The notes below the pieces were generated by a model that worked only from the letters and a program-made list of their open reading frames with translations, ran no database searches and was not told the origin of the DNA. From a virus (lineage: Duplodnaviria; Caudoviricetes), in the IMG/VR virus record IMGVR_UViG_3300025513_000049, positions 1-26,433 of that record: a DNA stretch of 26,433 bases. One strand, 5' to 3'. This document shows positions 2-19,155 of this stretch, one piece after another. The position numbers and the translations under genes are program-made. Position 1 is the stretch's first letter. The number at the start of each line of letters is the position of its first letter.

Positions 2-163
2 GTACGACAATGTGCACACGGTGTGATGACGGCGCGTAGTGGGCAGAGTGCCCGTGGACCGTGGAAGGCGTACATGTGCCCGACACCCAAGGGTACACCG
101 GGTCAATGTCAAGCACAGTTCCTTGACAACAAGAGTGCCGAATGGAACTCGTTCGCTGCGTAA
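2..163 (+). CDS. 3' end of a Cys/His zinc-finger-like phage protein (partial)
   Basis: Frame 2 reads VRQCAHGVMTARSGQSARGPWKAYMCPTPKGTPGQCQAQFLDNKSAEWNSFAA*, a C-x-HG-x-M...W-x3-CP...QC pattern; open at the window edge. Confidence 0.8.
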   Translation, partial: VRQCAHGVMTARSGQSARGPWKAYMCPTPKGTPGQCQAQFLDNKSAEWNSFAA

Positions 164-170
164 CTAAACT

Positions 171-212
171 TAGTGTGGGCAGGTTGACAGGGAAGCGGTC
201 TGTCCACACTAT
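171..212 (+). promoter_or_regulatory. Hairpin after the stop codon, overlapping a candidate SigA promoter for the downstream ncRNA
   Basis: TAGTGTGGGCAGGTTG (171-186) pairs with CGGTCTGTCCACACTA (196-211) using G-U pairs, loop ACAGGGAAG. TTGACA (184-189), 17 nt, CACTAT (207-212) would start transcription near 217-220. Confidence 0.45.
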
Positions 213-216
213 TCAT

Positions 217-436
217 GGTGGTGCGAAGCGGTAACGGCGGGACCGTGCACGGTAAGCGACTAAGCCGGAGGGAACTTTTTGGAAACTCACCGGGGTCTAG
301 CCACACTCTACGGAGTGTGCCACGCCGATAACGTGGAACGCTGACCTCACAGGGGGTCCATGCTCAAGGGATCTTCATTACGGCGCGACGTGTGTAATTA
401 TCGTTGATCCGTGGGTTCGACTCCCACACACCACCA
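217..436 (+). ncRNA. Unclassified ~220 nt structured RNA with tRNA-like acceptor stem and T-arm
   Basis: GGTGGTG (217-223)/CACCACC (429-435) then A436; T-arm GTGGG-TTCGACT-CCCAC (411-427); AGCGGTAA (227-234)/TTATCGTT (398-405); internal hairpins include CACACTC-TACG-GAGTGTG (302-319, UNCG loop). Fills an intergenic gap with no credible ORF. Confidence 0.7.
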
Positions 437-460
437 CCCCACCACGCAAGAAAGGGAAAC

Positions 461-1240
461 GTGAGAACACTAGACAGGGCGGTACGCTCACTTGACAAAG
501 GTGGTGCAGCATTACACTTACCGTTCCGTTCATGGGCAGACAAGCATATAAGTATCCGTCGTGGTGAAGTATCCATGATCGCAGGTCCACCCGGTGCAGG
601 TAAATCCACCGTGGCCCTAGCCCTCGCACTTAAAACACAAGTGCCAACCTTGTACGCTAGTGCTGACAGTCACGAATCCACCATGGCAATCCGATCCGTG
701 TCCATGATAACAGGTTTACCACAATCCGAAGTCGAATCACGCATGATGATGGACGTTGATTGGGCTAGCGGTTTACTGAAACAATACGGCAGTCACATCA
801 AATGGATGTTCGATGCCAGCCCCACACTAGGCGACCTTGAAGATGAGATCAACGTGTACCGTGAACTGTACGGTTCCGACCCCGAACTTGTGGTAGTAGA
901 CAACGCCGTAGATATTACTCACGAGAGTGGTGACGAGTTCGGTTCGTTGCGTTCACTGATGCGTGAAGTTAAATGGTGGGCACGTGAAATGAACTCAGCC
1001 TTCCTCATCCTGCATCACACCAGCGAATCGTACAACAGCAACCCTTGCCCACCACGGGCAGCGTTGCACGGAAAGATCGCACAAATACCTTCACTGATCC
1101 TCACCCTGTCATCCGAACAGCCCGGACTCATGGCCGTTGCACCAGTAAAGAACCGTTACGGGCCAGCGGATGCCACGGGTGGCACGGCAGTGTGGATGAA
1201 CTACTCGCCAGAGTCAATGCTACTAAGGGACATGGAATGA
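461..1240 (+). CDS. DnaB/RecA-like replicative helicase (ATPase domain only)
   Basis: Walker A GPPGAGKS, Walker B LVVVD, ILHH and KNRYG arginine-finger motif; GTG start at 461 behind AAGAAAGGG. Confidence 0.9.
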   Translation: MRTLDRAVRSLDKGGAALHLPFRSWADKHISIRRGEVSMIAGPPGAGKSTVALALALKTQVPTLYASADSHESTMAIRSVSMITGLPQSEVESRMMMDVDWASGLLKQYGSHIKWMFDASPTLGDLEDEINVYRELYGSDPELVVVDNAVDITHESGDEFGSLRSLMREVKWWAREMNSAFLILHHTSESYNSNPCPPRAALHGKIAQIPSLILTLSSEQPGLMAVAPVKNRYGPADATGGTAVWMNYSPESMLLRDME

Positions 1241-1737
1241 GAGTGGGGAGTTTGTTCACTGGTTACGGTGGCCTCGACATGGCTGTCGGTGGGAAACTCG
1301 CGTGGTACTCAGAGATTGAGCCAGCAGCCTGTCAAGTGCTGACAGCCCATTACCCAGATGTTCCCAACCTTGGAGACATCACAAAAATTGATTGGGCATC
1401 TGTTCCACCAGTTGACATTTTGACTGGCGGTTATCCATGCCAGCCATTTTCCCATGCAGGAAATAGGAAAGGTAAAGATGATGAACGACACCTCTGGCCT
1501 TACGTTCGAGACGCCATTGACGCGCTTCGACCAAGTTACGCAATCCTGGAGAACGTCGCAGGACACATCACTTTGGGATTTGCCGATGTCCTCGCCGACC
1601 TTGCCAGCATCGGGTTCGATGCGCAATGGGGAACTTTTCGAGCGTCCGATGTTGGAGCGCCCCACCAGCGCAACCGGCTCTTCATCGTTGCCTACCCTTG
1701 CAACTCCGGACACAATGGAATCATTACCAGTGCGTGA
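1237..1737 (+). CDS. C5 cytosine DNA methyltransferase, N-terminal part (motifs I-VIII)
   Basis: FTGYGG (I), GYPCQPFS (IV), ENV (VI), HQRNRLF (VIII); ATGA overlap with the helicase stop. Confidence 0.92.
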   Translation: MRVGSLFTGYGGLDMAVGGKLAWYSEIEPAACQVLTAHYPDVPNLGDITKIDWASVPPVDILTGGYPCQPFSHAGNRKGKDDERHLWPYVRDAIDALRPSYAILENVAGHITLGFADVLADLASIGFDAQWGTFRASDVGAPHQRNRLFIVAYPCNSGHNGIITSA

Positions 1738-2212
1738 AGGTGAAGCCTATGAGAAAGCCAAGCGACGTGGTAGTGGTCTGAGTGTGCGTGAGGACTCAGG
1801 CAACTTGCGGGAGCAAGTAGTTCATAACCTGCCTACCCCGACCGCTCGTGACTACAAAGACACGACGGTTCGCATGGAGCCGCACCGGCCTAACGACACA
1901 GACACAATTAACAGGGCGCTGGCAAGCATTACAACAACCGGAACCGCGTGGGGTAAGTACGAGCCTGCAATACGACGCTGGGAAAACCTCACACGCGAAG
2001 CACCTGAACCCACAGTCCCACACAAAGACAAACGCAGACTCAACCCCGTGTTTGTCGAATGGATGATGGGTTTACCGGAAGGGCACGTTACAGGGCGTGG
2101 GCTTACACCAGCGAAAGAGTTAAAAATGCTCGGTAACGGTGTCGTGCCGCAACAGGCGCGTGCCGCTGTCAATCAACTAATGGGGAGGATGGGTAATGTC
2201 GGCAGCCAATAA
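1478..2212 (+). CDS. C5 cytosine DNA methyltransferase, C-terminal part (TRD, motifs IX-X), in an overlapping +1 frame
   Basis: LPTPTARDYKD, RRLNPVFVEWMMGLP (IX), LKMLGNGVVP (X); SD AATAGGAAAGG (1462-1472) precedes ATG ATG at 1478/1481. Start position is uncertain. Confidence 0.85.
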   Translation: MMNDTSGLTFETPLTRFDQVTQSWRTSQDTSLWDLPMSSPTLPASGSMRNGELFERPMLERPTSATGSSSLPTLATPDTMESLPVREGEAYEKAKRRGSGLSVREDSGNLREQVVHNLPTPTARDYKDTTVRMEPHRPNDTDTINRALASITTTGTAWGKYEPAIRRWENLTREAPEPTVPHKDKRRLNPVFVEWMMGLPEGHVTGRGLTPAKELKMLGNGVVPQQARAAVNQLMGRMGNVGSQ

Positions 2213-2558: not shown

Positions 2559-2713
2559 CTGACGCTAGGCTCCCCATTGCAGAGGCATACTTCACAAAGT
2601 ATTATTCTTACCTTTCCAAATACTTCGAGATCGCAGTTGTTTTTGGTGGCGAAGAAGCCAAGAGACAATTCTATGCCGATCACAACATGAACCCTGACGG
2701 AAGCACGAAATGA
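2555..2713 (+). CDS. Hypothetical 52-aa protein (MTDARLPIAEAYFTKYY...)
   Basis: GTGA overlap with the upstream stop and ATGA overlap with the downstream start; fills the gap exactly. Confidence 0.7.
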   Translation: MTDARLPIAEAYFTKYYSYLSKYFEIAVVFGGEEAKRQFYADHNMNPDGSTK

Positions 2714-2732
2714 CTGACGCTAGGTTCCCCAT
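2556..2732 (+). repeat. 22-nt direct repeat (2556-2577 and 2711-2732) at two consecutive gene starts
   Basis: TGACTGACGCTAGGCTCCCCAT vs TGACTGACGCTAGGTTCCCCAT, one mismatch. Confidence 0.9.
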
Positions 2733-3108
2733 ATGGCCAGTGCTCGAACACTACGGGTGGACGTTACCATCACCGCGTGGAGTGTGGCAGACAGTGAAGT
2801 GTGGGGCACACGACGACAGTCACATGTCCTGCCGTGTCAGTGAAGATGCCGGTCAAGTAAAATGTTTAGCATGTGGATTTTCGGGCGACGCTATCGCGGT
2901 CGTTCAACACTACGAACAGTTAGGATTTAAGGATGCTCTCACTAGATGCGAAGAACTCACTGGAACAAGCGACAGCAGCGTACGAAACACAAGTGGATCA
3001 GGTCGCGGGTTATCTGGCAGCAAGGGGAATAAGTCAAGAGGCCGCGTTTACACACCGCCTCGGCTTCGTGGCCGATCCTCTGGTGGGACACGAACGGTAC
3101 GTGGGTAG
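2710..3108 (+). CDS. DNA primase zinc-binding (CHC2) subunit
   Basis: CGAHDD-x3-SC...CLACGFSGDAI; the low-complexity tail overlaps the next gene. Confidence 0.88.
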   Translation: MTDARFPIWPVLEHYGWTLPSPRGVWQTVKCGAHDDSHMSCRVSEDAGQVKCLACGFSGDAIAVVQHYEQLGFKDALTRCEELTGTSDSSVRNTSGSGRGLSGSKGNKSRGRVYTPPRLRGRSSGGTRTVRG

Positions 3109-3550
3109 ACTTGCTATCCCCTACGTCACGCCTACGTGTGTCACTGACGTTCGCTTCCGTGCTGTTAACGATGACGATTCTCCGAAGTATCTGTCGCGTG
3201 AGGGAGCCGAAACCCACCTATACAACGTGAAAGCGTTCGAGATGGACTCAGATTTTATTGCCATATGTGAAGGGGAAATGGACACGATCATCTCCCATAG
3301 CATGTGTGGTATTCCTACGATAGGATTAGCGGGTGCTAACGCATGGAAGCCTTGGTATGCTAGGGCTTTCGCTGATTACCATAAAGTGTTTGTGTTAACT
3401 GATGGTGACCAGCCGGGTAGGGATCTTGGCAAGAAGATCGCGCAGCAGATTGATGTGGCGGTAGTAGTGTCCATGCCTGACGGGATGGATGTGAACGAAG
3501 TGTTTATTCGTGACGGTGTTGAAGGTGTCAGAGGAAGGATCGGGTTGTGA
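2933..3550 (+). CDS. DNA primase catalytic TOPRIM subunit
   Basis: YLAARGI, RLAIPY, PKYL, ICEGEMD, DGDQPG, MDVNE motifs. Confidence 0.92.
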   Translation: MLSLDAKNSLEQATAAYETQVDQVAGYLAARGISQEAAFTHRLGFVADPLVGHERYVGRLAIPYVTPTCVTDVRFRAVNDDDSPKYLSREGAETHLYNVKAFEMDSDFIAICEGEMDTIISHSMCGIPTIGLAGANAWKPWYARAFADYHKVFVLTDGDQPGRDLGKKIAQQIDVAVVVSMPDGMDVNEVFIRDGVEGVRGRIGL

Positions 3551-9690: not shown

Positions 9691-10500
9691 CTAGCCTGTG
9701 ATTCGCACTGGCATCAGTAAGTAATCCCACTTGACGCCGTTATGTGCCTCCACATAGTCAAGCATGGCCGGTTTAAGGTTAGTGGTGAATCTAAATCTTA
9801 TGGGTGCATCCTTCCAATGAGGGATCTTCGCGACATCCGCAAGATATGTCGGATTGTAGGACGCGAACGTAACGCTACCCTGCGACAGCATCTCATCCGT
9901 TGGCACTAACGACCGCCATTTTGGGAATTCACCGTCGATAGTTCGCACCGGGCGCACAATACGCTCACTAGGGTCACCGTATTCAATGGTTACCGTGTCA
10001 CGACCGACGAGTGTGACCGTAATCATGTCATGCTCACTATTATTCCACGCTATTTTTTTAGGCAACACTTTGACTAGTTCGGCGGCCACCGTGCGAGGCA
10101 ACAAGAATCCGCCCTCACCTACCGTAACCGCGTACGATTCTTTCCGTGTCACACCTACCACCATACGGTAACGGTCGGTAGTAATCACAGTGATCTCGTT
10201 ATTGGACCATTCAAACTTTATCCCCGTGAGTACGGGTAGCGTGTCATCTTTGCCTACGGCCACTAGCGCGCCGATAAGCATGTCGCGAAACGAAACACCT
10301 AACATAGTAAATGTTGGCGCGGTAACGACATTTTCCGGGGTGAATCCCACACTATTATCGACCGCATGCATCTTAGTGCTACCGTCGCGTGAATATTCCG
10401 GCGACAAATCCCCGGAACCTAACGGTGCACCTACCGGGATAATCTCCACTTTAGACATGATCCCACTAGACACGATGTCATTCTTGAATCCTGTATACAT
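9691..10500 (-). CDS. Truncated DNA polymerase III beta-clamp (DnaN)-like protein
   Basis: DDTLPVLTGI, TTDRYRM, GEFPKWRSLVP, YNPTYLADV and C-terminal YLLMPVRI match DnaN domains II/III; domain I is absent. Confidence 0.85.
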   Translation of the reverse strand: MYTGFKNDIVSSGIMSKVEIIPVGAPLGSGDLSPEYSRDGSTKMHAVDNSVGFTPENVVTAPTFTMLGVSFRDMLIGALVAVGKDDTLPVLTGIKFEWSNNEITVITTDRYRMVVGVTRKESYAVTVGEGGFLLPRTVAAELVKVLPKKIAWNNSEHDMITVTLVGRDTVTIEYGDPSERIVRPVRTIDGEFPKWRSLVPTDEMLSQGSVTFASYNPTYLADVAKIPHWKDAPIRFRFTTNLKPAMLDYVEAHNGVKWDYLLMPVRITG

Positions 10501-10530
10501 AATCTAATCCTATCTATTCTGTTATGACGA

Positions 10531-10594
10531 TAATCTATCGCCATGAAACGACACTAGCATACCTTGCCTAGTGTCGCAACATGAAACTAGATTA
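10531..10594 (-). other. Intergenic hairpin B (64 nt)
   Basis: Minus strand TAATCTA-GTTT-CATG-TT-GCGACACTAG-loop10-CTAGTGTCGT-TT-CATG-GCGA-TAGATTA. Confidence 0.88.
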
Positions 10595-10600
10595 AATCAC

Positions 10601-10816
10601 CTACTTCCCGGAATAAAGGCAATCGTAATACGTTGGCGTCACAGTATCTAACCACGTCGTAAAATCTAATTGCCTATTGCCCCCCAACTTATACGTTGCC
10701 AGCATATCGAAGTCGGTATGTAACTCCACGGTGTCACTACCGATAATCCACGTCCACCATTGCCCGATACGGTTAGCGCGTTGCGCGGTCATGATACCGT
10801 CGCGTGAATAAATCAT
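10601..10816 (-). CDS. Hypothetical early protein
   Basis: 71-aa ORF preceded by AGAATAGGAAGG. Confidence 0.8.
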   Translation of the reverse strand: MIYSRDGIMTAQRANRIGQWWTWIIGSDTVELHTDFDMLATYKLGGNRQLDFTTWLDTVTPTYYDCLYSGK

Positions 10817-10929
10817 TTTGTTACCTTCCTATTCTTAATCCATACGATATGGCACTGGCAATAATCCCATACCATGTCGCATTGCTCACAAGTAATTCCA
10901 TTAGTCGAACGATACTCTGTGCGTTTCAT
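10813..10929 (-). CDS. 38-aa Cys microprotein
   Basis: MKRTEYRSTNGITCEQCDMVWDYCQCHIVWIKNRKVTK*; ATGA overlaps on both ends; SD AAGGTG. Confidence 0.7.
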   Translation of the reverse strand: MKRTEYRSTNGITCEQCDMVWDYCQCHIVWIKNRKVTK

Positions 10930-11159
10930 GTTGTCACCTTGCCCAATTCGGCACTGACCACCGGGTAAGTAGGACGACCGTAGTCATGCAAAGTCATTAC
11001 AGACTTGTCAGACTTACAACCGAAACAATACACTCCCGAAAGATAAGTGTTACAACTAGCGCACACTATAACCAACTTAGGATCAAACTTGTCTTTCGAA
11101 GTATTGTGCCAACATCCTGTGCTGTTGTACCCTGAAAACTCGCAATAAATACATTCCAT
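10926..11159 (-). CDS. Cys-rich zinc-finger-like early protein
   Basis: CIYC...CWH...CASC...CFGC; alternative GTG start at 11171. Confidence 0.75.
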   Translation of the reverse strand: MECIYCEFSGYNSTGCWHNTSKDKFDPKLVIVCASCNTYLSGVYCFGCKSDKSVMTLHDYGRPTYPVVSAELGKVTT

Positions 11160-11193
11160 GATCTTTCCCACTTTCCTATCCTCACCTAACCAA

Positions 11194-11249
11194 TTTGATT
11201 AAGTAGCAAGCCCTAGCGCCTAAGCACTAGAGCAAACTAACTATTCAAA
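11194..11249 (-). other. Intergenic hairpin C (~56 nt)
   Basis: Core 11204-11239, minus strand TAGT-TT-GCTCTAGTGC-TTAG-GCGCTAGGGC-TT-GCTA, with G-U pairs on the minus strand. Confidence 0.8.
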
Positions 11250-11511
11250 CTCTCACCTGATGAATAACGTCCACCGTGAAGCGATCACCGCCTAGGTGGG
11301 AATGGCAACCGTCGCACATTGACCAACTAAAGTTAGGCTCACCTTTGTCACTACTAATATCCGTGTAACTATCCACGCGCAAAAGATAGGACATGAATTG
11401 GTAACCCAACTCGTTAGTGTCTTCTTTACCTTCGAATACCCCGTGGCCTGTCATGTAGCAATCCACGCAAATATCTGCACTGTAAATAATTAGTTCTGGT
11501 GTCGCACTCAT
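11245..11511 (-). CDS. Early protein with two CxxC motifs
   Basis: ICVDC...FSWSMCDGCHSHLGGDRF; preceded by AGAATAGGAAGG. Confidence 0.85.
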   Translation of the reverse strand: MSATPELIIYSADICVDCYMTGHGVFEGKEDTNELGYQFMSYLLRVDSYTDISSDKGEPNFSWSMCDGCHSHLGGDRFTVDVIHQVRV

Positions 11512-11529
11512 GTCCTTGCCTTCCTATTC

Positions 11530-11598
11530 TTGTCCTATTGTTAGGACATAGCCGAACCTAGGTTCCCCTAGGTCAGACTATGAAACAACACTAGACAA
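11530..11598 (-). other. Intergenic hairpin D (69 nt, GNRA loop)
   Basis: Minus strand TTGTC..TGTT-GTTT-CATAGTC-T-GACCTAGG-GGAA-CCTAGGTT-C-GGCTATG-TCCT-AACA..GACAA. Confidence 0.85.
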
Positions 11599-11600
11599 CC

Positions 11601-11915
11601 TTACATGCACTCCCCAACAAACTCTAGTACCGACTCCACGGCGAACGGCGCATAAACATATACTTCAGCCTTATCTCCCCCCCAATTAACTTCCACACTC
11701 GCGCCACTATCCTGGAAAGTAACCCAACAATTAGGACCACCTAAAGTAACCGCTACTTCGACACTCACCAGAGTGTTGCCGTAGCCATAAGTGCAACGCG
11801 TATCTAAACAATCATCCAAATATGCCATAGCGTCGAATACCTTACCGTTGGCAACAATCTCACGCAAATCGTCCGCAATACTATCGGCGTATTCTTGACT
11901 CAAATTATCAGACAT
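11601..11915 (-). CDS. Acidic early protein (TLGGPN...NWG motif)
   Basis: 104-aa ORF preceded by AGAATAGGAAAGG. Confidence 0.85.
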   Translation of the reverse strand: MSDNLSQEYADSIADDLREIVANGKVFDAMAYLDDCLDTRCTYGYGNTLVSVEVAVTLGGPNCWVTFQDSGASVEVNWGGDKAEVYVYAPFAVESVLEFVGECM

Positions 11916-11946
11916 GACTAACCTTTCCTATTCTGTCGTAACGTAT

Positions 11947-12011
11947 CCGCTTTGGATACTACACAATACACTGACTCACTCGCCTAGTGTACCGTGTGCT
12001 ATTGAAAGCGG
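11947..12011 (-). other. Intergenic hairpin E (65 nt)
   Basis: Minus strand CCGCTTT-CAATAGC-ACACGGTACACT-loop-AGTGTATTGTGT-AGTATCC-AAAGCGG. Confidence 0.8.
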
Positions 12012-12047
12012 GCCAAGATGTCGTGCCTCACTCATGCGTTCATTGTT

Positions 12048-12197
12048 TCACTCTTCCACTAATAGTTGTCGGAATAAAGCCTTAGCCTCTTCTAAAGTGT
12101 AGTCAATGTATCGCTGTCGCACCAGATAACCTAAGTCATCCAAGGCTGATAGTGTGAATCCGTCCACGCCATATTGCTCTACGGTAATGTTATTCAT
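12048..12197 (-). CDS. 49-aa early protein
   Basis: MNNITVEQYGVDGFTLSALDDLGYLVRQRYIDYTLEEAKALFRQLLVEE*; SD AAGGA. Confidence 0.8.
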   Translation of the reverse strand: MNNITVEQYGVDGFTLSALDDLGYLVRQRYIDYTLEEAKALFRQLLVEE

Positions 12198-12206
12198 GTC
12201 TAATCC

Positions 12207-12497
12207 TTAATTGTAGGCAGGCCGGTTAGCCTGATCAAAAGTAGAATATGTCACCTTGACATACGGCCTAGGCACATAGTCGTCGTCGTTCACAATAGGT
12301 TCGACTAGGTTCGTCGAAACATTAACCCGTTCGCGTGTTGTCCTACGTCGTGGCTTTTTGCCATAGGCAGGATAGTAACCCGTTGGTGACGAACTACTAC
12401 GCAAGCCATACACACTAGGGTTAGGTCTTGCACTCACCCTAGCCAGATTTAATGGCGTACCACTTCCGAACAACGACGCGCTATTGGCGCGTGACAT
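12207..12497 (-). CDS. First early gene, basic and probably disordered protein (MSRANSASLFGSG...)
   Basis: ATG at 12497 behind AGACTAGGAAAGG...GGTGG; contains KKPRRR. Confidence 0.7.
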   Translation of the reverse strand: MSRANSASLFGSGTPLNLARVSARPNPSVYGLRSSSSPTGYYPAYGKKPRRRTTRERVNVSTNLVEPIVNDDDYVPRPYVKVTYSTFDQANRPAYN

Positions 12498-12552
12498 GAA
12501 TACCACCAAGCCTTTCCTAGTCTGAGATACTTGCGTATCTTCCAATAAATCA

Positions 12553-12581
12553 ACCTTACTACTTTTGGTTCATGTAGTCAA
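12553..12581 (-). promoter_or_regulatory. SigA-type early promoter P1
   Basis: TTGACT (12581-12576), 17 nt spacer, TAAGGT (12558-12553), pointing into the leftward operon. Confidence 0.75.
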
Positions 12582-12678
12582 GTACCTAGCGGAAAGAATT
12601 TTGGGAGAGGATCACCGGCGACCGGCTTCTTGATCCACGCTCCCCGAACTTTCCGGTTGCTACTTGCTTACAGGGATT

Positions 12679-12706
12679 ACATTACTCCGATCTCAGGAAA
12701 GCACAA
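12679..12706 (-). promoter_or_regulatory. Second candidate SigA-type early promoter P2
   Basis: TTGTGC, 16 nt spacer, TAATGT; weaker -35 match. Confidence 0.5.
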
Positions 12707-12727
12707 GGGGCAAAACGGACATTCACA

Positions 12728-12743
12728 TGTGATCTACGTCACA
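12728..12743. promoter_or_regulatory. CRP/GlxR-type binding site
   Basis: TGTGA-TCTACG-TCACA matches the TGTGA-N6-TCACA consensus exactly. Confidence 0.7.
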
Positions 12744-13000
12744 CTCATTGTCCGATATGCGGAACTTTCGACCCCCGACCCAATACATGCCCGTCAATCC
12801 TAGGCCCTCAGAATGGACGACAGAGCCACGTCCGATAACCGGAGTCCTGGCCTACACATAACGGACACACACAACAACAACGCACCACCCGCAAGGTAGT
12901 TGCATCTGCATTGGTTTGGTTATTGCAAGTTGTTTGCAGGTGCGAACGGTTTGCAGGTGTATGTAGTGTGGGTTCAGGCCGGTTAGGTTAGGCTTACCTT

Positions 13001-13047
13001 ACGGGGTACCCCGTCGGTTGGCCTATACCCCCTGGGGGTATACCCCC
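13001..13047. repeat. Clustered perfect palindromes
   Basis: ACGGGGTACCCCGT (13001-13014), TATACCCCC-T-GGGGGTATA (13024-13042), GGGGGTATACCCCC (13034-13047). Confidence 0.85.
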
Positions 13048-13056
13048 GTACCGTGG

Positions 13057-13116
13057 TTACCCACCAGTAACTTACGGTAGCGTAGGTTACGGTAGCGTAG
13101 GTTACCCATCAGTAAC
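13057..13116. repeat. Four tandem 15-bp units, TTAC-N6-GTA(A/G)-(C/G)
   Basis: TTACCCACCAGTAAC / TTACGGTAGCGTAGG / TTACGGTAGCGTAGG / TTACCCATCAGTAAC. Confidence 0.9.
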
Positions 13117-13619
13117 TTGACCCCATGGATGCTTAGGTGGCCGCGGAGGGTAGTATATATATAGGGGTACCTTTCTTGCGGGTTATATTGTTTGGGGGCT
13201 ACCGTATTGTCCGGTTTGTACACATAGTTTACAACAATGTTGTAACAATTTACTGTTTTCTTGTTTTTTGTGTCCAAAAGGGTGTCCGAAACGAGGATAT
13301 ATATATAGAAAGTAAAACCGTACGGTACTGTAAGCGAGTGCTTCTTGCACGAGCGCACATCGCTTCGGTTTACGTTGAAGGCACTACGAAGTAGGTGCCG
13401 GTAACTCACCCTTCGTTGCTTCGCCTCAGGGTTCGTTTAACGGTTACTGTTTCTTGGGGCACTTCGCTCAGTCGTCGCTTCGCTCCTCCTTCGCTCAGTA
13501 GTTTCAACGCCGATGCTAATAATTGTACGCCAATGGGGGTACCCTCTCCTACACCCCTGTTAACACCCTAGTCAACATTGCTGTGTACACAATTTTTTTT
13601 TAACGGAAAGGTTGTCTCC

Positions 13620-18288: not shown

Positions 18289-18408
18289 GTGGATAAAAAA
18301 CCAGCAAAAAAGGCCACGACTGCACCAAAGAAAAAAGTTCCTAAAGGTTCCCATATGATGCCTAATGGTTCAATCATGAAGAACTCAGCAATGAAGAAGA
18401 AGTATTAG
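18289..18408 (+). CDS. 39-aa Lys-rich microprotein with HMMPNG motif
   Basis: MDKKPAKKATTAPKKKVPKGSHMMPNGSIMKNSAMKKKY*; SD AAGGGA. Confidence 0.75.
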   Translation: MDKKPAKKATTAPKKKVPKGSHMMPNGSIMKNSAMKKKY

Positions 18409-18410
18409 TA

Positions 18411-18584
18411 ATGGCAGAGAAGAAGCCGTTTTGGGAAAAAAAGAATCCAAAGAAAACTTCCACTCCTTTAACTGCTGCACAAAAAAGCAACGCTAAGGCT
18501 AGAGCCAAGAAAGCCGGTCGTCCTTACCCTAACTTGGTTGATAACGCTGCTGCCAAAAAATCCTCATCAAGTAGAAAGAAGTAG
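18411..18584 (+). CDS. 57-aa basic microprotein (AGRPYPNLVDN motif)
   Basis: MAEKKPFWEKKNPKK...AKARAKKAGRPYPNLVDNAAAKK...*. Confidence 0.8.
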   Translation: MAEKKPFWEKKNPKKTSTPLTAAQKSNAKARAKKAGRPYPNLVDNAAAKKSSSSRKK

Positions 18585-18588
18585 CGGC

Positions 18589-18714
18589 ATGTGTATGTCT
18601 TGTGGTTGCTGGATGGACCCTGAAAGTAAAAGTGAACCGAACCATCCGGAGAATTCAACTGTAATGCCTAACGTTAAAACAACGGTAGGTCCTCTTCCTA
18701 AGAAAGGTAACTAA
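18589..18714 (+). CDS. 41-aa microprotein with N-terminal MCxxCGC
   Basis: MCMSCGCWMDPESKSEPNHPENSTVMPNVKTTVGPLPKKGN*. Confidence 0.7.
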   Translation: MCMSCGCWMDPESKSEPNHPENSTVMPNVKTTVGPLPKKGN

Positions 18715-18715
18715 C

Positions 18716-18829
18716 ATGGCAGCATCAGCACCAACACAACCGCCTCTTGACGGTCGCAACTCACCAAAGCCCGGAGATAAAGGACAGATCATGTTCAGTA
18801 CTAATCCCGGTGGAACTAAAGGTAAGTAA
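18716..18829 (+). CDS. 37-aa microprotein
   Basis: MAASAPTQPPLDGRNSPKPGDKGQIMFSTNPGGTKGK*; SD GAAAGG. Confidence 0.7.
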   Translation: MAASAPTQPPLDGRNSPKPGDKGQIMFSTNPGGTKGK

Positions 18830-18864
18830 AAAACTATTGTCGTTAAAACAAGGAAGGGTGCATA

Positions 18865-19155
18865 ATGAACGGTAAACCTGCAAGTAGGGACATTGGTATG
18901 CACATTTCTTGGGGTGACATCAGGTGCTCTGTTATCGCTGAAGGGCGCTCGTGGAGTCCTGATGTTGCCGACGATATGGTTAACCGCATGGGTGACTTGT
19001 GGGAAAACACTCTCCGCAGCATTTCCGATACCGGATACTTTGATGGTGAAGAAGAAGAAGAGGATGAAGAGGACGAGTACGGTCCCACTCCTAGTAAAGA
19101 ACTTATTGACCCGTACGTTATTAGACTGAGTGAGGATGGTGAGGTGAGTGGCTGA
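18865..19155 (+). CDS. Hypothetical protein with acidic tail
   Basis: SD AGGAAGGG; EEEEEDEEDE tract. Confidence 0.8.
   Translation: MNGKPASRDIGMHISWGDIRCSVIAEGRSWSPDVADDMVNRMGDLWENTLRSISDTGYFDGEEEEEDEEDEYGPTPSKELIDPYVIRLSEDGEVSG

What the first reader, a model, noticed from the sequence alone, without database searches (positions are those of the whole stretch)
217..436. tRNA-mimic ncRNA of ~220 nt: acceptor stem and T-arm enclosing a ~160 nt structured insert
Seen: 7-bp acceptor-like stem GGTGGTG/CACCACC followed by A; a textbook T-arm (GTGGG-TTCGACT-CCCAC) with one extra A before the acceptor 3' strand; no D-arm; and an 8-bp stem (227-234/398-405) in the anticodon-stem position. That stem closes a multi-hairpin domain: GGCGGGACC/GGTCTAGCC (236-244/294-302), a 7-bp UACG tetraloop hairpin (302-319), CCACG/CGTGG (320-336) and GACCTC/GGGGTC (343-358). 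G-U pairs and the UNCG loop favour a plus-strand RNA. Knowledge: the topology resembles the tmRNA tRNA-like domain, but tmRNA is ~360 nt with a G3-U70 pair and an ...AA tag, none of which is seen. YrlA RNAs are tRNA mimics but are permuted and linked to Ro60/Rsr, which is not in this window. Inference: a possibly undescribed phage tRNA mimic, for example an anticodon-nuclease decoy, an RNase P processing/stability element, or a regulatory leader for the helicase 24 nt downstream.
Basis: partly seen in the sequence, partly recalled or inferred. Interest (0 to 1): 0.88.

Follow-up and report, generated by a model that had tools for sequence, protein, structure and literature searches.

The report
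Phage tRNA look-alike with self-pairing tip
Several uncultured phages, likely of actinobacteria, carry an uncatalogued sequence that keeps the top half of a tRNA but has a long conserved paired stalk where the anticodon arm should be, and in most relatives (not this copy) the stalk ends in a self-complementary loop, so it is predicted to be an RNA that pairs into a two-headed tRNA look-alike that would act as a decoy for host tRNA-binding proteins.

Summary
The element is real and selected. Ten aligned copies (nine besides the window) from related phages keep acceptor stem, T-arm and the extra A. 19 of 47 model pairs change on both sides (0/500 shuffles). It is an optional cassette: near-identical sister phages lack it, and one carrier has it away from the helicase, facing a convergent gene, so it is not simply a helicase leader.

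Homologs support a five-way cloverleaf: acceptor, D-like hairpin, a ~145-nt rod ending in a three-way junction, variable hairpin, T-arm. In 8 of 9 tip loops examined the rod ends in a 6-8-nt self-complementary sequence that switches between different palindromes, the signature used for OLE/GOLLD intermolecular kissing loops. The window copy has a UACG loop there instead.

No Rfam or ARAGORN call. It fails tmRNA (no G3-U70, no tag, A47 and D-loop A replaced), YrlA (unpermuted, no TROVE) and intron tests. Best guess: an RNase P-released, probably dimeric tRNA mimic acting as a decoy. Expression, dimer and target are untested.

The parts
217..438 (+). Whole predicted ncRNA: tRNA-like head with a long rod in place of the anticodon arm; discriminator A436, then C437 C438, no encoded CCA
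   Evidence: 188 bits with model R1, which was built from it
217..223 (+). Acceptor stem 5' strand (pairs with 429-435); G+1; U3-A70, not G3-U70
   Evidence: helix 1
224..246 (+). Near-invariant 5' block: linker plus D-like hairpin (229-232/242-245), or alternatively a 3-bp D arm 224-226/234-236 around a tRNA-type D loop
247..393 (+). Long irregular rod: P1.5 247-251/389-393, P2a 256-258/384-386, P2b 261-263/378-380, P3 267-271/372-376, P4 about 275-283/357-368, P5 295-301/340-345 with bulged U298
   Evidence: self-pairing beats cross-pairing: 0.7% of 5040 and 0.3% of 720 permutations
302..319 (+). P6, rod tip; UACG tetraloop here, a 6-8-nt palindromic loop in 8 other members
320..336 (+). P7 hairpin, second arm of the three-way junction
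   Evidence: helix 9 (4 of 6 pairs change on both sides)
242..253 (.). 12-nt palindrome found only in the window and L112; possible substitute self-pairing site (speculative)
394..410 (+). Variable-arm-like segment (weak hairpin here, strong in L077, L101, L104) ending in invariant C48 at 410
411..428 (+). T-arm (5 bp, loop UUCGACU) and the invariant extra A428
429..435 (+). Acceptor stem 3' strand
461..1240 (+). DnaB-like helicase gene, usual downstream neighbour
   Evidence: phrog_243, E 6e-69
2..163 (+). 3' end of the upstream gene (phrog_364; its counterpart in L077 matches Pfam Phage_gp49)
171..211 (+). Separate upstream hairpin, also present in phages that lack the element

Best explanation
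It is a conserved, optional phage cassette predicted to encode a non-coding RNA that host RNase P would likely cut out of the replication operon, that keeps a tRNA-like acceptor and elbow, that likely pairs with a second copy through the palindromic tip of its stalk in most family members, and that would then act as a two-headed decoy for a host protein that recognises the top half of tRNA. SHOWN by calls: covarying structure, patchy presence, no coding signal, switching palindromes, loss of alanine and tag features. INFERRED: transcription with the flanking same-strand genes; RNase P cleavage at 217 (G+1 in 10 of 10, U-1 in 8 of 10, 7-bp acceptor, T-arm); 3' trimming and CCA addition (no copy encodes CCA); kissing-loop dimer. 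GUESSED: the target, most plausibly a tRNA-sensing or tRNA-attacking anti-phage or stress protein, because the near-invariant 5' block and T-arm are more conserved than cutting alone should need and presence is as patchy as for counter-defence genes. The window copy has traded the palindrome for a UACG loop, so it may be a monomer or may use its own 12-nt palindrome at 242-253. My odds for the steps: structured RNA under selection 0.95; acts in trans 0.7; family dimerises 0.65; decoy role 0.35-0.4.
For: Covariation: 19 of 47 pairs change on both sides, 0/500 shuffles, slid controls 4-7 pairs; cross-pairing tests. Relative to the window, the 5' block is 79-93% and T-arm plus acceptor 63-96% identical, while the rod is 38-61% identical (L112 apart) and helicase third codon positions of four carriers are 40-53% identical. 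Patchy: 5 of 56 helicase loci carry it upstream, 7 of 50 whole records and 3 of 13 near-complete ones carry it, and the window, L005, L018, L043, L044 and L053 each have a close sister without it at that site. Different site in L105 and in the distant phage L106 (terminase 25% identical). Tip loops: 7 of 8 non-window loops hold a Watson-Crick palindrome of 6 or more nt, the eighth an 8-nt one with two G-U pairs; about 0.1 expected per loop; 1 of 16 control segments. Inner tetramers switch among CUAG, GGCC, CCGG and CUGG; adjacent bases cannot pair within one strand, the argument used for OLE and GOLLD bridges (bioRxiv 10.1101/2024.12.08.627333, passages). Precedent for a tag-less phage mimic inhibiting a host system: DS6A TLD (PMC4131195, PMC11915505, passages).
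Against: No expression, processing or binding data. The window copy and L112 lack the tip palindrome. I defined the tip loops after noticing the pattern; single-loop shuffle p values are only 0.03-0.2 (1.0 for L109 on Watson-Crick pairs); members are related; homology of the L077 and L106 tips is assumed from position. In the predicted monomer ensemble the palindrome is mostly paired in L105 (0.17 unpaired), L077 (0.21) and L060 (0.34). The comparative fold of the window is 6.7 kcal/mol above its MFE (-76.5 vs -83.2). Only 10 aligned sequences; helices were chosen on the same alignment they were counted on. L099 has C in place of the Levitt G15, L105 has U56, L112 and L106 lack A73. No partner gene co-occurs, so nothing points to a target.
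Confidence: 0.38

Rival explanations
1. The tRNA-like head is only a maturation and stability handle; the working part is the rod, which oligomerises or binds a protein as a small counterpart of OLE/ROOL/GOLLD-type RNAs.
For: The rod has many covarying helices and conserved bulges and a palindromic tip; phage RNAs of unknown function are known to form homo-oligomers.
Against: Sequence conservation is highest in the head, not the rod; L106 keeps the head and a palindromic loop with most of the rod gone.
Confidence: 0.27
2. A tmRNA-derived antagonist like the DS6A TLD: it soaks up SmpB and damps trans-translation.
For: The 5' block scores above all 65 tRNAs on a tmRNA profile in most members (0.7 vs at most -2.4; shuffle p 0.006); G7, C48 and C59 match tmRNA; three members have tmRNA-like T-arms; a long helix leaving the head recalls H2.
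Against: The same block scores far below real tmRNAs (most 7-20) and scores 3.5-6.6 on the tRNA profile; the window scores -5.3 on the tmRNA profile. A47 (31 of 31 tmRNAs) is absent in 10 of 10, the D-loop A (28 of 31) is G in 10 of 10, no G3-U70, an extra A after the T stem. DS6A keeps the G3-U70 pair and scores only 19 bits with R1.
Confidence: 0.1
3. A cis-acting cleavage/stability signal (t-element-like) that splits the operon and tunes helicase expression.
For: Directly or nearly directly upstream of the helicase in most carriers, including the distant L077; RNase P-type features.
Against: L105 sits at the end of an operon facing a convergent gene; most helicase loci lack it; a 145-nt covarying rod and a dimer loop are not needed for a cutting signal.
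Confidence: 0.12
4. A selfish or catalytic insert: a tRNA interrupted by a self-splicing intron or ribozyme, or an RNA-mobilised element.
For: Patchy, cassette-like presence with clean empty alleles and short ATGA/GTGA overlaps at the 5' junction.
Against: In-silico excisions give no shared anticodon: 0 tRNA calls in 3 of 10 members and scattered anticodons in the rest; no Rfam intron or ribozyme match; no reverse transcriptase in 5 of 5 carrier records.
Confidence: 0.07
5. A single-stranded DNA signal (replication origin or primase site) next to the replication genes rather than an RNA.
For: Lies between a gp49-like gene and the helicase; starts with GCGAAGC, a stable DNA mini-hairpin (recalled, no call).
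Against: Invariant G-U pair, one-sided G-C to G-U changes, a G-U palindrome, canonical T loop and acceptor ends; absent from most relatives although an origin would be essential.
Confidence: 0.03

Closest known systems
Tag-less tmRNA TLD of mycobacteriophage DS6A (PMC4131195, PMC11915505; passages read)
   Same: Phage-encoded, unpermuted acceptor plus T-arm, no anticodon, no tag; reported to inhibit a host system
   Different: DS6A is about 80 nt, keeps G3-U70, the UCGAC D loop and the AC linker. This RNA lacks these, has an extra A after the T stem, a D-like hairpin, a long rod and a palindromic tip.
tmRNA (RF00023)
   Same: Ends form acceptor and T-arm around a large insert; partial likeness of the D region; G7, C48, C59
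   Different: No G3-U70, no conserved tag frame, SmpB-side A47 and D-loop A replaced; only an 18-nt T-arm match at 18.5 bits in L077
YrlA and Yrn1 Y RNAs (PMC4201824 passages and one section part; bioRxiv 10.1101/312249 passages)
   Same: tRNA mimics with strongly conserved D/T elbow sequence, also in actinophages
   Different: YrlA is circularly permuted and lies next to Ro60. Here the order is unpermuted, the 5' motif reads TGCGAAG rather than GNCGAAN0-1G, and no TROVE gene is found in 5 of 5 carrier records.
OLE, GOLLD and ROOL homo-oligomeric RNAs (bioRxiv 10.1101/2024.12.08.627333, passages)
   Same: Phage or bacterial ncRNAs whose loops switch between palindromes and pair between molecules
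   Different: Far larger, no Rfam match, and not built as a tRNA whose anticodon arm carries the dimer loop
Allo-tRNAs and tRNA-Sec-like RNAs (PMC5389517, passages)
   Same: Irregular acceptor branch, long D stem with short loop, variable arm, five-stem junctions in some, found in phages
   Different: Those have 8/4 or 9/3 branches and an anticodon arm; this one is 7/5 with a bulged A and has no anticodon loop

Membership tests
tmRNA | G3-U70 and alanine acceptor | tested here: not met
   U-A or A-U at 3-70 in 10 of 10
tmRNA | Tag reading frame with stop and hydrophobic end | tested here: not met
   No shared frame or tail in three-frame translations of 11 members; no ARAGORN tmRNA
tmRNA | Conserved D-loop and linker bases on the SmpB side | tested here: not met
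   A47 in 31 of 31 tmRNAs vs 0 of 10; D-loop A in 28 of 31 vs 0 of 10
tmRNA | 7-bp acceptor and T-arm formed by the two ends | tested here: met
   with one extra A
tmRNA | SmpB binding | not testable with these tools
   needs a binding assay
YrlA Y RNA | Circularly permuted tRNA domain (T before D, closed acceptor) | tested here: not met
   D-like block first, T-arm last, open acceptor
YrlA Y RNA | 5' GNCGAAN0-1G motif | tested here: not met
   First position is T in 10 of 10 (motif); the other positions match in 10 of 10 except the final G in L099, so a loose likeness remains
YrlA Y RNA | Ro60/Rsr gene within 4 kb | tested here: not met
   0 of 5 carrier records, 3 of them complete; host-encoded Rsr not tested
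Canonical tRNA | Anticodon arm and 8-9 connector | tested here: not met
   ARAGORN 0 genes in the window and in 9 of 10 loci; only the weak member L084 gets an overlapping tRNA-Glu call
Canonical tRNA | T loop, C48 and D-loop GG for an elbow | tested here: inconclusive
   T loop and C48 conserved; which GG docks cannot be told from sequence
Intron-containing tRNA (group I) | Excision restores a tRNA with a conserved anticodon; intron core | tested here: not met
OLE/GOLLD/ROOL-type oligomeric RNA | Covariance-model match | tested here: not met
OLE/GOLLD/ROOL-type oligomeric RNA | Loop switching between palindromes | tested here: met
   8 of 9 tip loops; not in the window copy
OLE/GOLLD/ROOL-type oligomeric RNA | Physical oligomer | not testable with these tools
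   needs native gels, mass photometry or cryo-EM

The most novel reading that the evidence does not exclude
A new class of phage RNA: a tRNA whose anticodon arm has become a long stalk ending in a self-recognising kissing loop, so that two copies join tail to tail into a rigid, two-headed tRNA mimic that cross-links or titrates host tRNA-binding machinery (defence toxins, stringent-response or ribosome factors), with each phage lineage using its own palindrome.
Probability: 0.3. Interest if true: 0.9.

Novelty: new variant of a known kind. Interest (0 to 1): 0.72.

Why it matters
Phage tRNA mimics with known roles are few (the DS6A TLD, YrlA). This family is not in Rfam, is swapped in and out among otherwise near-identical phages, and joins two motifs I did not find together in print: a tRNA-like head under strong sequence selection and a dimer-type palindromic loop at the anticodon end. 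The 122-nt and ~200-nt members are small enough for direct tests of dimerisation, RNase P processing and protein partners, which could reveal a new RNA-based counter-defence or a new RNA quaternary design.

Tried and rejected
ARAGORN and Rfam (E-value mode) on the window and homolog loci found nothing over the element. No sigma-70-like promoter or intrinsic terminator in 1-700. BLAST of the element or of three homologs against cultured phages and of one against plasmids gave only short T-arm or chance matches. The exact 3' pattern found nothing. Pattern scans returned many chance hits, dropped after reading because no T-arm or matching acceptor followed: 4 of 9, 22 of 27, 7 of 15, 34 of 40, 2 of 2 bacterial-genome hits, 2 of 8. 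So no member was found in GTDB species genomes with that exact pattern, which does not exclude diverged ones. L084 (37.8 bits, GC-biased, degenerate) was left out of alignment A1 and of the palindrome count; L112 was not counted separately from the window there; L060 has an assembly gap. A peptide reading frame starting at 214 (38 codons in the window) was rejected: homologs shift frame and show no synonymous changes in the conserved block. My early idea of a pseudoknot between 248-253 and 264-267 was replaced by helix P1.5. Group I, group II domain V, HDV-like and T-box likenesses were considered from memory and dropped for lack of matching pairings or Rfam hits. No gene family was present in all five carriers and absent from the four non-carriers compared (crude six-frame clustering; three of the carriers complete). 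The look-up of sequencing runs: no RNA holder listed. Eight paper searches (listings and abstract starts only, except the papers named) showed no description of this RNA. In PMC10690425 motif and contig-id searches of the readable supplements found nothing, but its model and alignment files could not be read, so one of its 10,006 candidates could be this motif. Mao et al. 2009 was not seen, only cited by two papers.

Full report
CONTEXT. The window is a whole 26.4-kb virus record with WhiB, a DnaB-like helicase, split primase, terminase and portal genes. The closest cultured helicases with a named host are from Streptomyces and Mycobacterium phages, so an actinobacterial host is likely. The element (217-436) lies between a gp49-like gene and the helicase start at 461. 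ARAGORN and Rfam do not call it.

HOMOLOGS. Among 56 helicase loci, five carry the element upstream (L005, L018, L043, L044, L053), while phages with 98-100% identical helicases (L001-L004, L006, L045) lack it cleanly. Pattern scans added L099/L107, L105, L077 (helicase 46% identical), the 122-nt L106 and a doubtful 101-nt L084. With model R1, 7 of 50 whole records and 3 of 13 near-complete ones match; 71 further loci gave only three already known contigs. On a helicase tree carriers are scattered, and most sit beside a near-identical non-carrier. L105 lies after a sigma-like gene facing a convergent ORF, and L106 lies beside the terminase of a distant phage. Short ATGA/GTGA overlaps at the 5' junction suggest exchange by recombination at gene boundaries (inference). 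No tRNA genes (20 stretches), TROVE or reverse transcriptase were found in carrier records, and no gene tracked the element.

STRUCTURE. On 10 aligned sequences RNAalifold and manual adjustment gave 47 pairs. 93% of cells pair and 19 pairs change on both sides, against 8.3 in shuffles (0/500) and 4-7 in slid controls. The helices were chosen on this alignment and the sequences are related, so this is strong but not independent support. The model is a five-way cloverleaf: acceptor 217-223/429-435, D-like hairpin 228-246, rod 247-393 ending in a three-way junction (P5, P6 302-319, P7 320-336), a variable hairpin, T-arm 411-427 and an invariant extra A428. Each member's rod strands pair better with their own partners than with those of other members (0.7% of 5040 and 0.3% of 720 permutations do as well). 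Energy z-scores are modest, and the comparative fold of the window is 6.7 kcal/mol above its MFE. The head is far more conserved in sequence (79-93% and 63-96%) than the rod (38-61%) or helicase third positions (40-53%). A possible short ORF through the 5' block is not conserved in frame.

THE TIP. In L104, L105 and L060 the P6 loop has the same layout, two bases, six bases, then UCA, and the six bases are three different palindromes. L099, L101, L077 and L106 also have Watson-Crick palindromes of 6-8 nt in their tip loops, and L109 has an 8-nt one with two G-U pairs. About 0.1 per loop is expected, and 1 of 16 control segments has one. Central bases cannot pair within a strand, so switching among CUAG, GGCC, CCGG and CUGG points to pairing between molecules. 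The same reasoning supported cryo-EM bridges of OLE and GOLLD (passages), and single palindromic loops typically give dimers (PMC7357161, passages). Against this: the loops were picked after the pattern was seen, single-loop p values are weak, three palindromes are predicted mostly paired in the monomer, and the window copy has a UACG loop, with a separate 12-nt palindrome at 242-253 shared only with L112.

ANCESTRY AND MEMBERSHIP. I compared the head with 31 tmRNAs and 65 tRNAs fetched here (no actinobacterial host genomes were reachable; three actinophage tmRNA-type sequences were included). The D region is tRNA-like before the GG and tmRNA-like after it, and scores between the two sets. The T-arm side shares G7, C48 and C59 with tmRNA but lacks A47 in 10 of 10. 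G3-U70 and a tag frame are absent, so it is not a tmRNA. DS6A's tag-less TLD, reported to inhibit tmRNA (PMC4131195, PMC11915505, passages), keeps those features and is a different RNA (19 bits). It is not YrlA: unpermuted, motif mismatch, no Ro60. It is not an intron-split tRNA or an allo-tRNA (PMC5389517, passages). Whether it arose from a tRNA or a tmRNA is unresolved. PMC3968760 and PMC9004378 were read as passages for background only.

MECHANISM. Most likely the RNA is transcribed with the replication operon and released by RNase P (G+1 in 10 of 10, U-1 in 8 of 10), then trimmed and given CCA, since none is encoded. It would present a tRNA-like acceptor and elbow without any decoding loop and, in most lineages, dimerise tail to tail. 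The excess conservation of the head argues that something reads its sequence, and the patchy exchange among sister phages fits a host-dependent benefit such as counter-defence. I put the whole decoy model at 0.38. Rivals: a functional rod with the head as a handle (0.27), a cis-acting cutting signal (0.12), an SmpB sink (0.10), a catalytic or selfish insert (0.07), a DNA signal (0.03). None of the processing, dimer or target steps has been observed.

NOVELTY. No Rfam family, no look-alike among this scan's earlier findings by sequence or place, and no description in eight paper searches; the unreadable supplements of PMC10690425 remain a gap. Earlier notes of this scan describe several anticodon-less tRNA look-alikes in other genomes (unchecked), so the broad kind is common. 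What is distinctive here is the long covarying rod, the palindrome-switching tip and the mobile distribution. Verdict: real, undescribed as far as searched, a new variant of phage tRNA mimic, interest 0.72.

Noticed in passing
window 171-211; L001-L006, L007, L022, L025, L043: A long hairpin with GGGAAGC in its loop lies between the gp49-like gene and the helicase, with stem changes that keep pairing; it is present with or without the tRNA-like element and may be a separate regulatory or processing motif. L005 has the stem with another loop.
   Followed up: partly
L305 about 1999-2101, minus strand: An unrelated ~100-nt RNA-like element with a long acceptor-like stem, a tmRNA-like D region and a 6-bp T stem; 20.6 bits against RF00023, no ARAGORN call, followed by further T-loop-like hairpins. 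Possibly another tag-less TLD.
   Followed up: partly
L106 2365-2720: ORF-poor stretch with several hairpins downstream of the short family member; overall folding no better than shuffles (z 0.51).
   Followed up: partly
window 1240-1737 and 1454-2212: DNA methyltransferase encoded as two overlapping ORFs in different frames (phrog_363 and phrog_1008); the primase is likewise split at 2710-3108 and 2933-3550.
   Followed up: no
L007, about 2835-2990: The same intergenic slot holds a different structured-looking insert (several hairpins, no T-arm), and L001/L002/L004/L005 hold a small ORF there: the slot before the helicase is a hotspot for exchangeable cassettes.
   Followed up: no
L084 238-341: Degenerate 101-nt relative with an intact 5' block but a distorted T and acceptor stem; ARAGORN reads an overlapping tRNA-Glu at 264-337.
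   Followed up: partly
L311 1168-3843: Array of 19 tRNA calls in a viral contig, including one with a CUA anticodon (1954-2029), which may indicate amber read-through.
   Followed up: no
window 10500-13570 and 18296-19148: Long stretches with few or only short ORFs, including the switch between the leftward genes and the terminase; not examined for RNAs beyond the negative Rfam scan.
   Followed up: no
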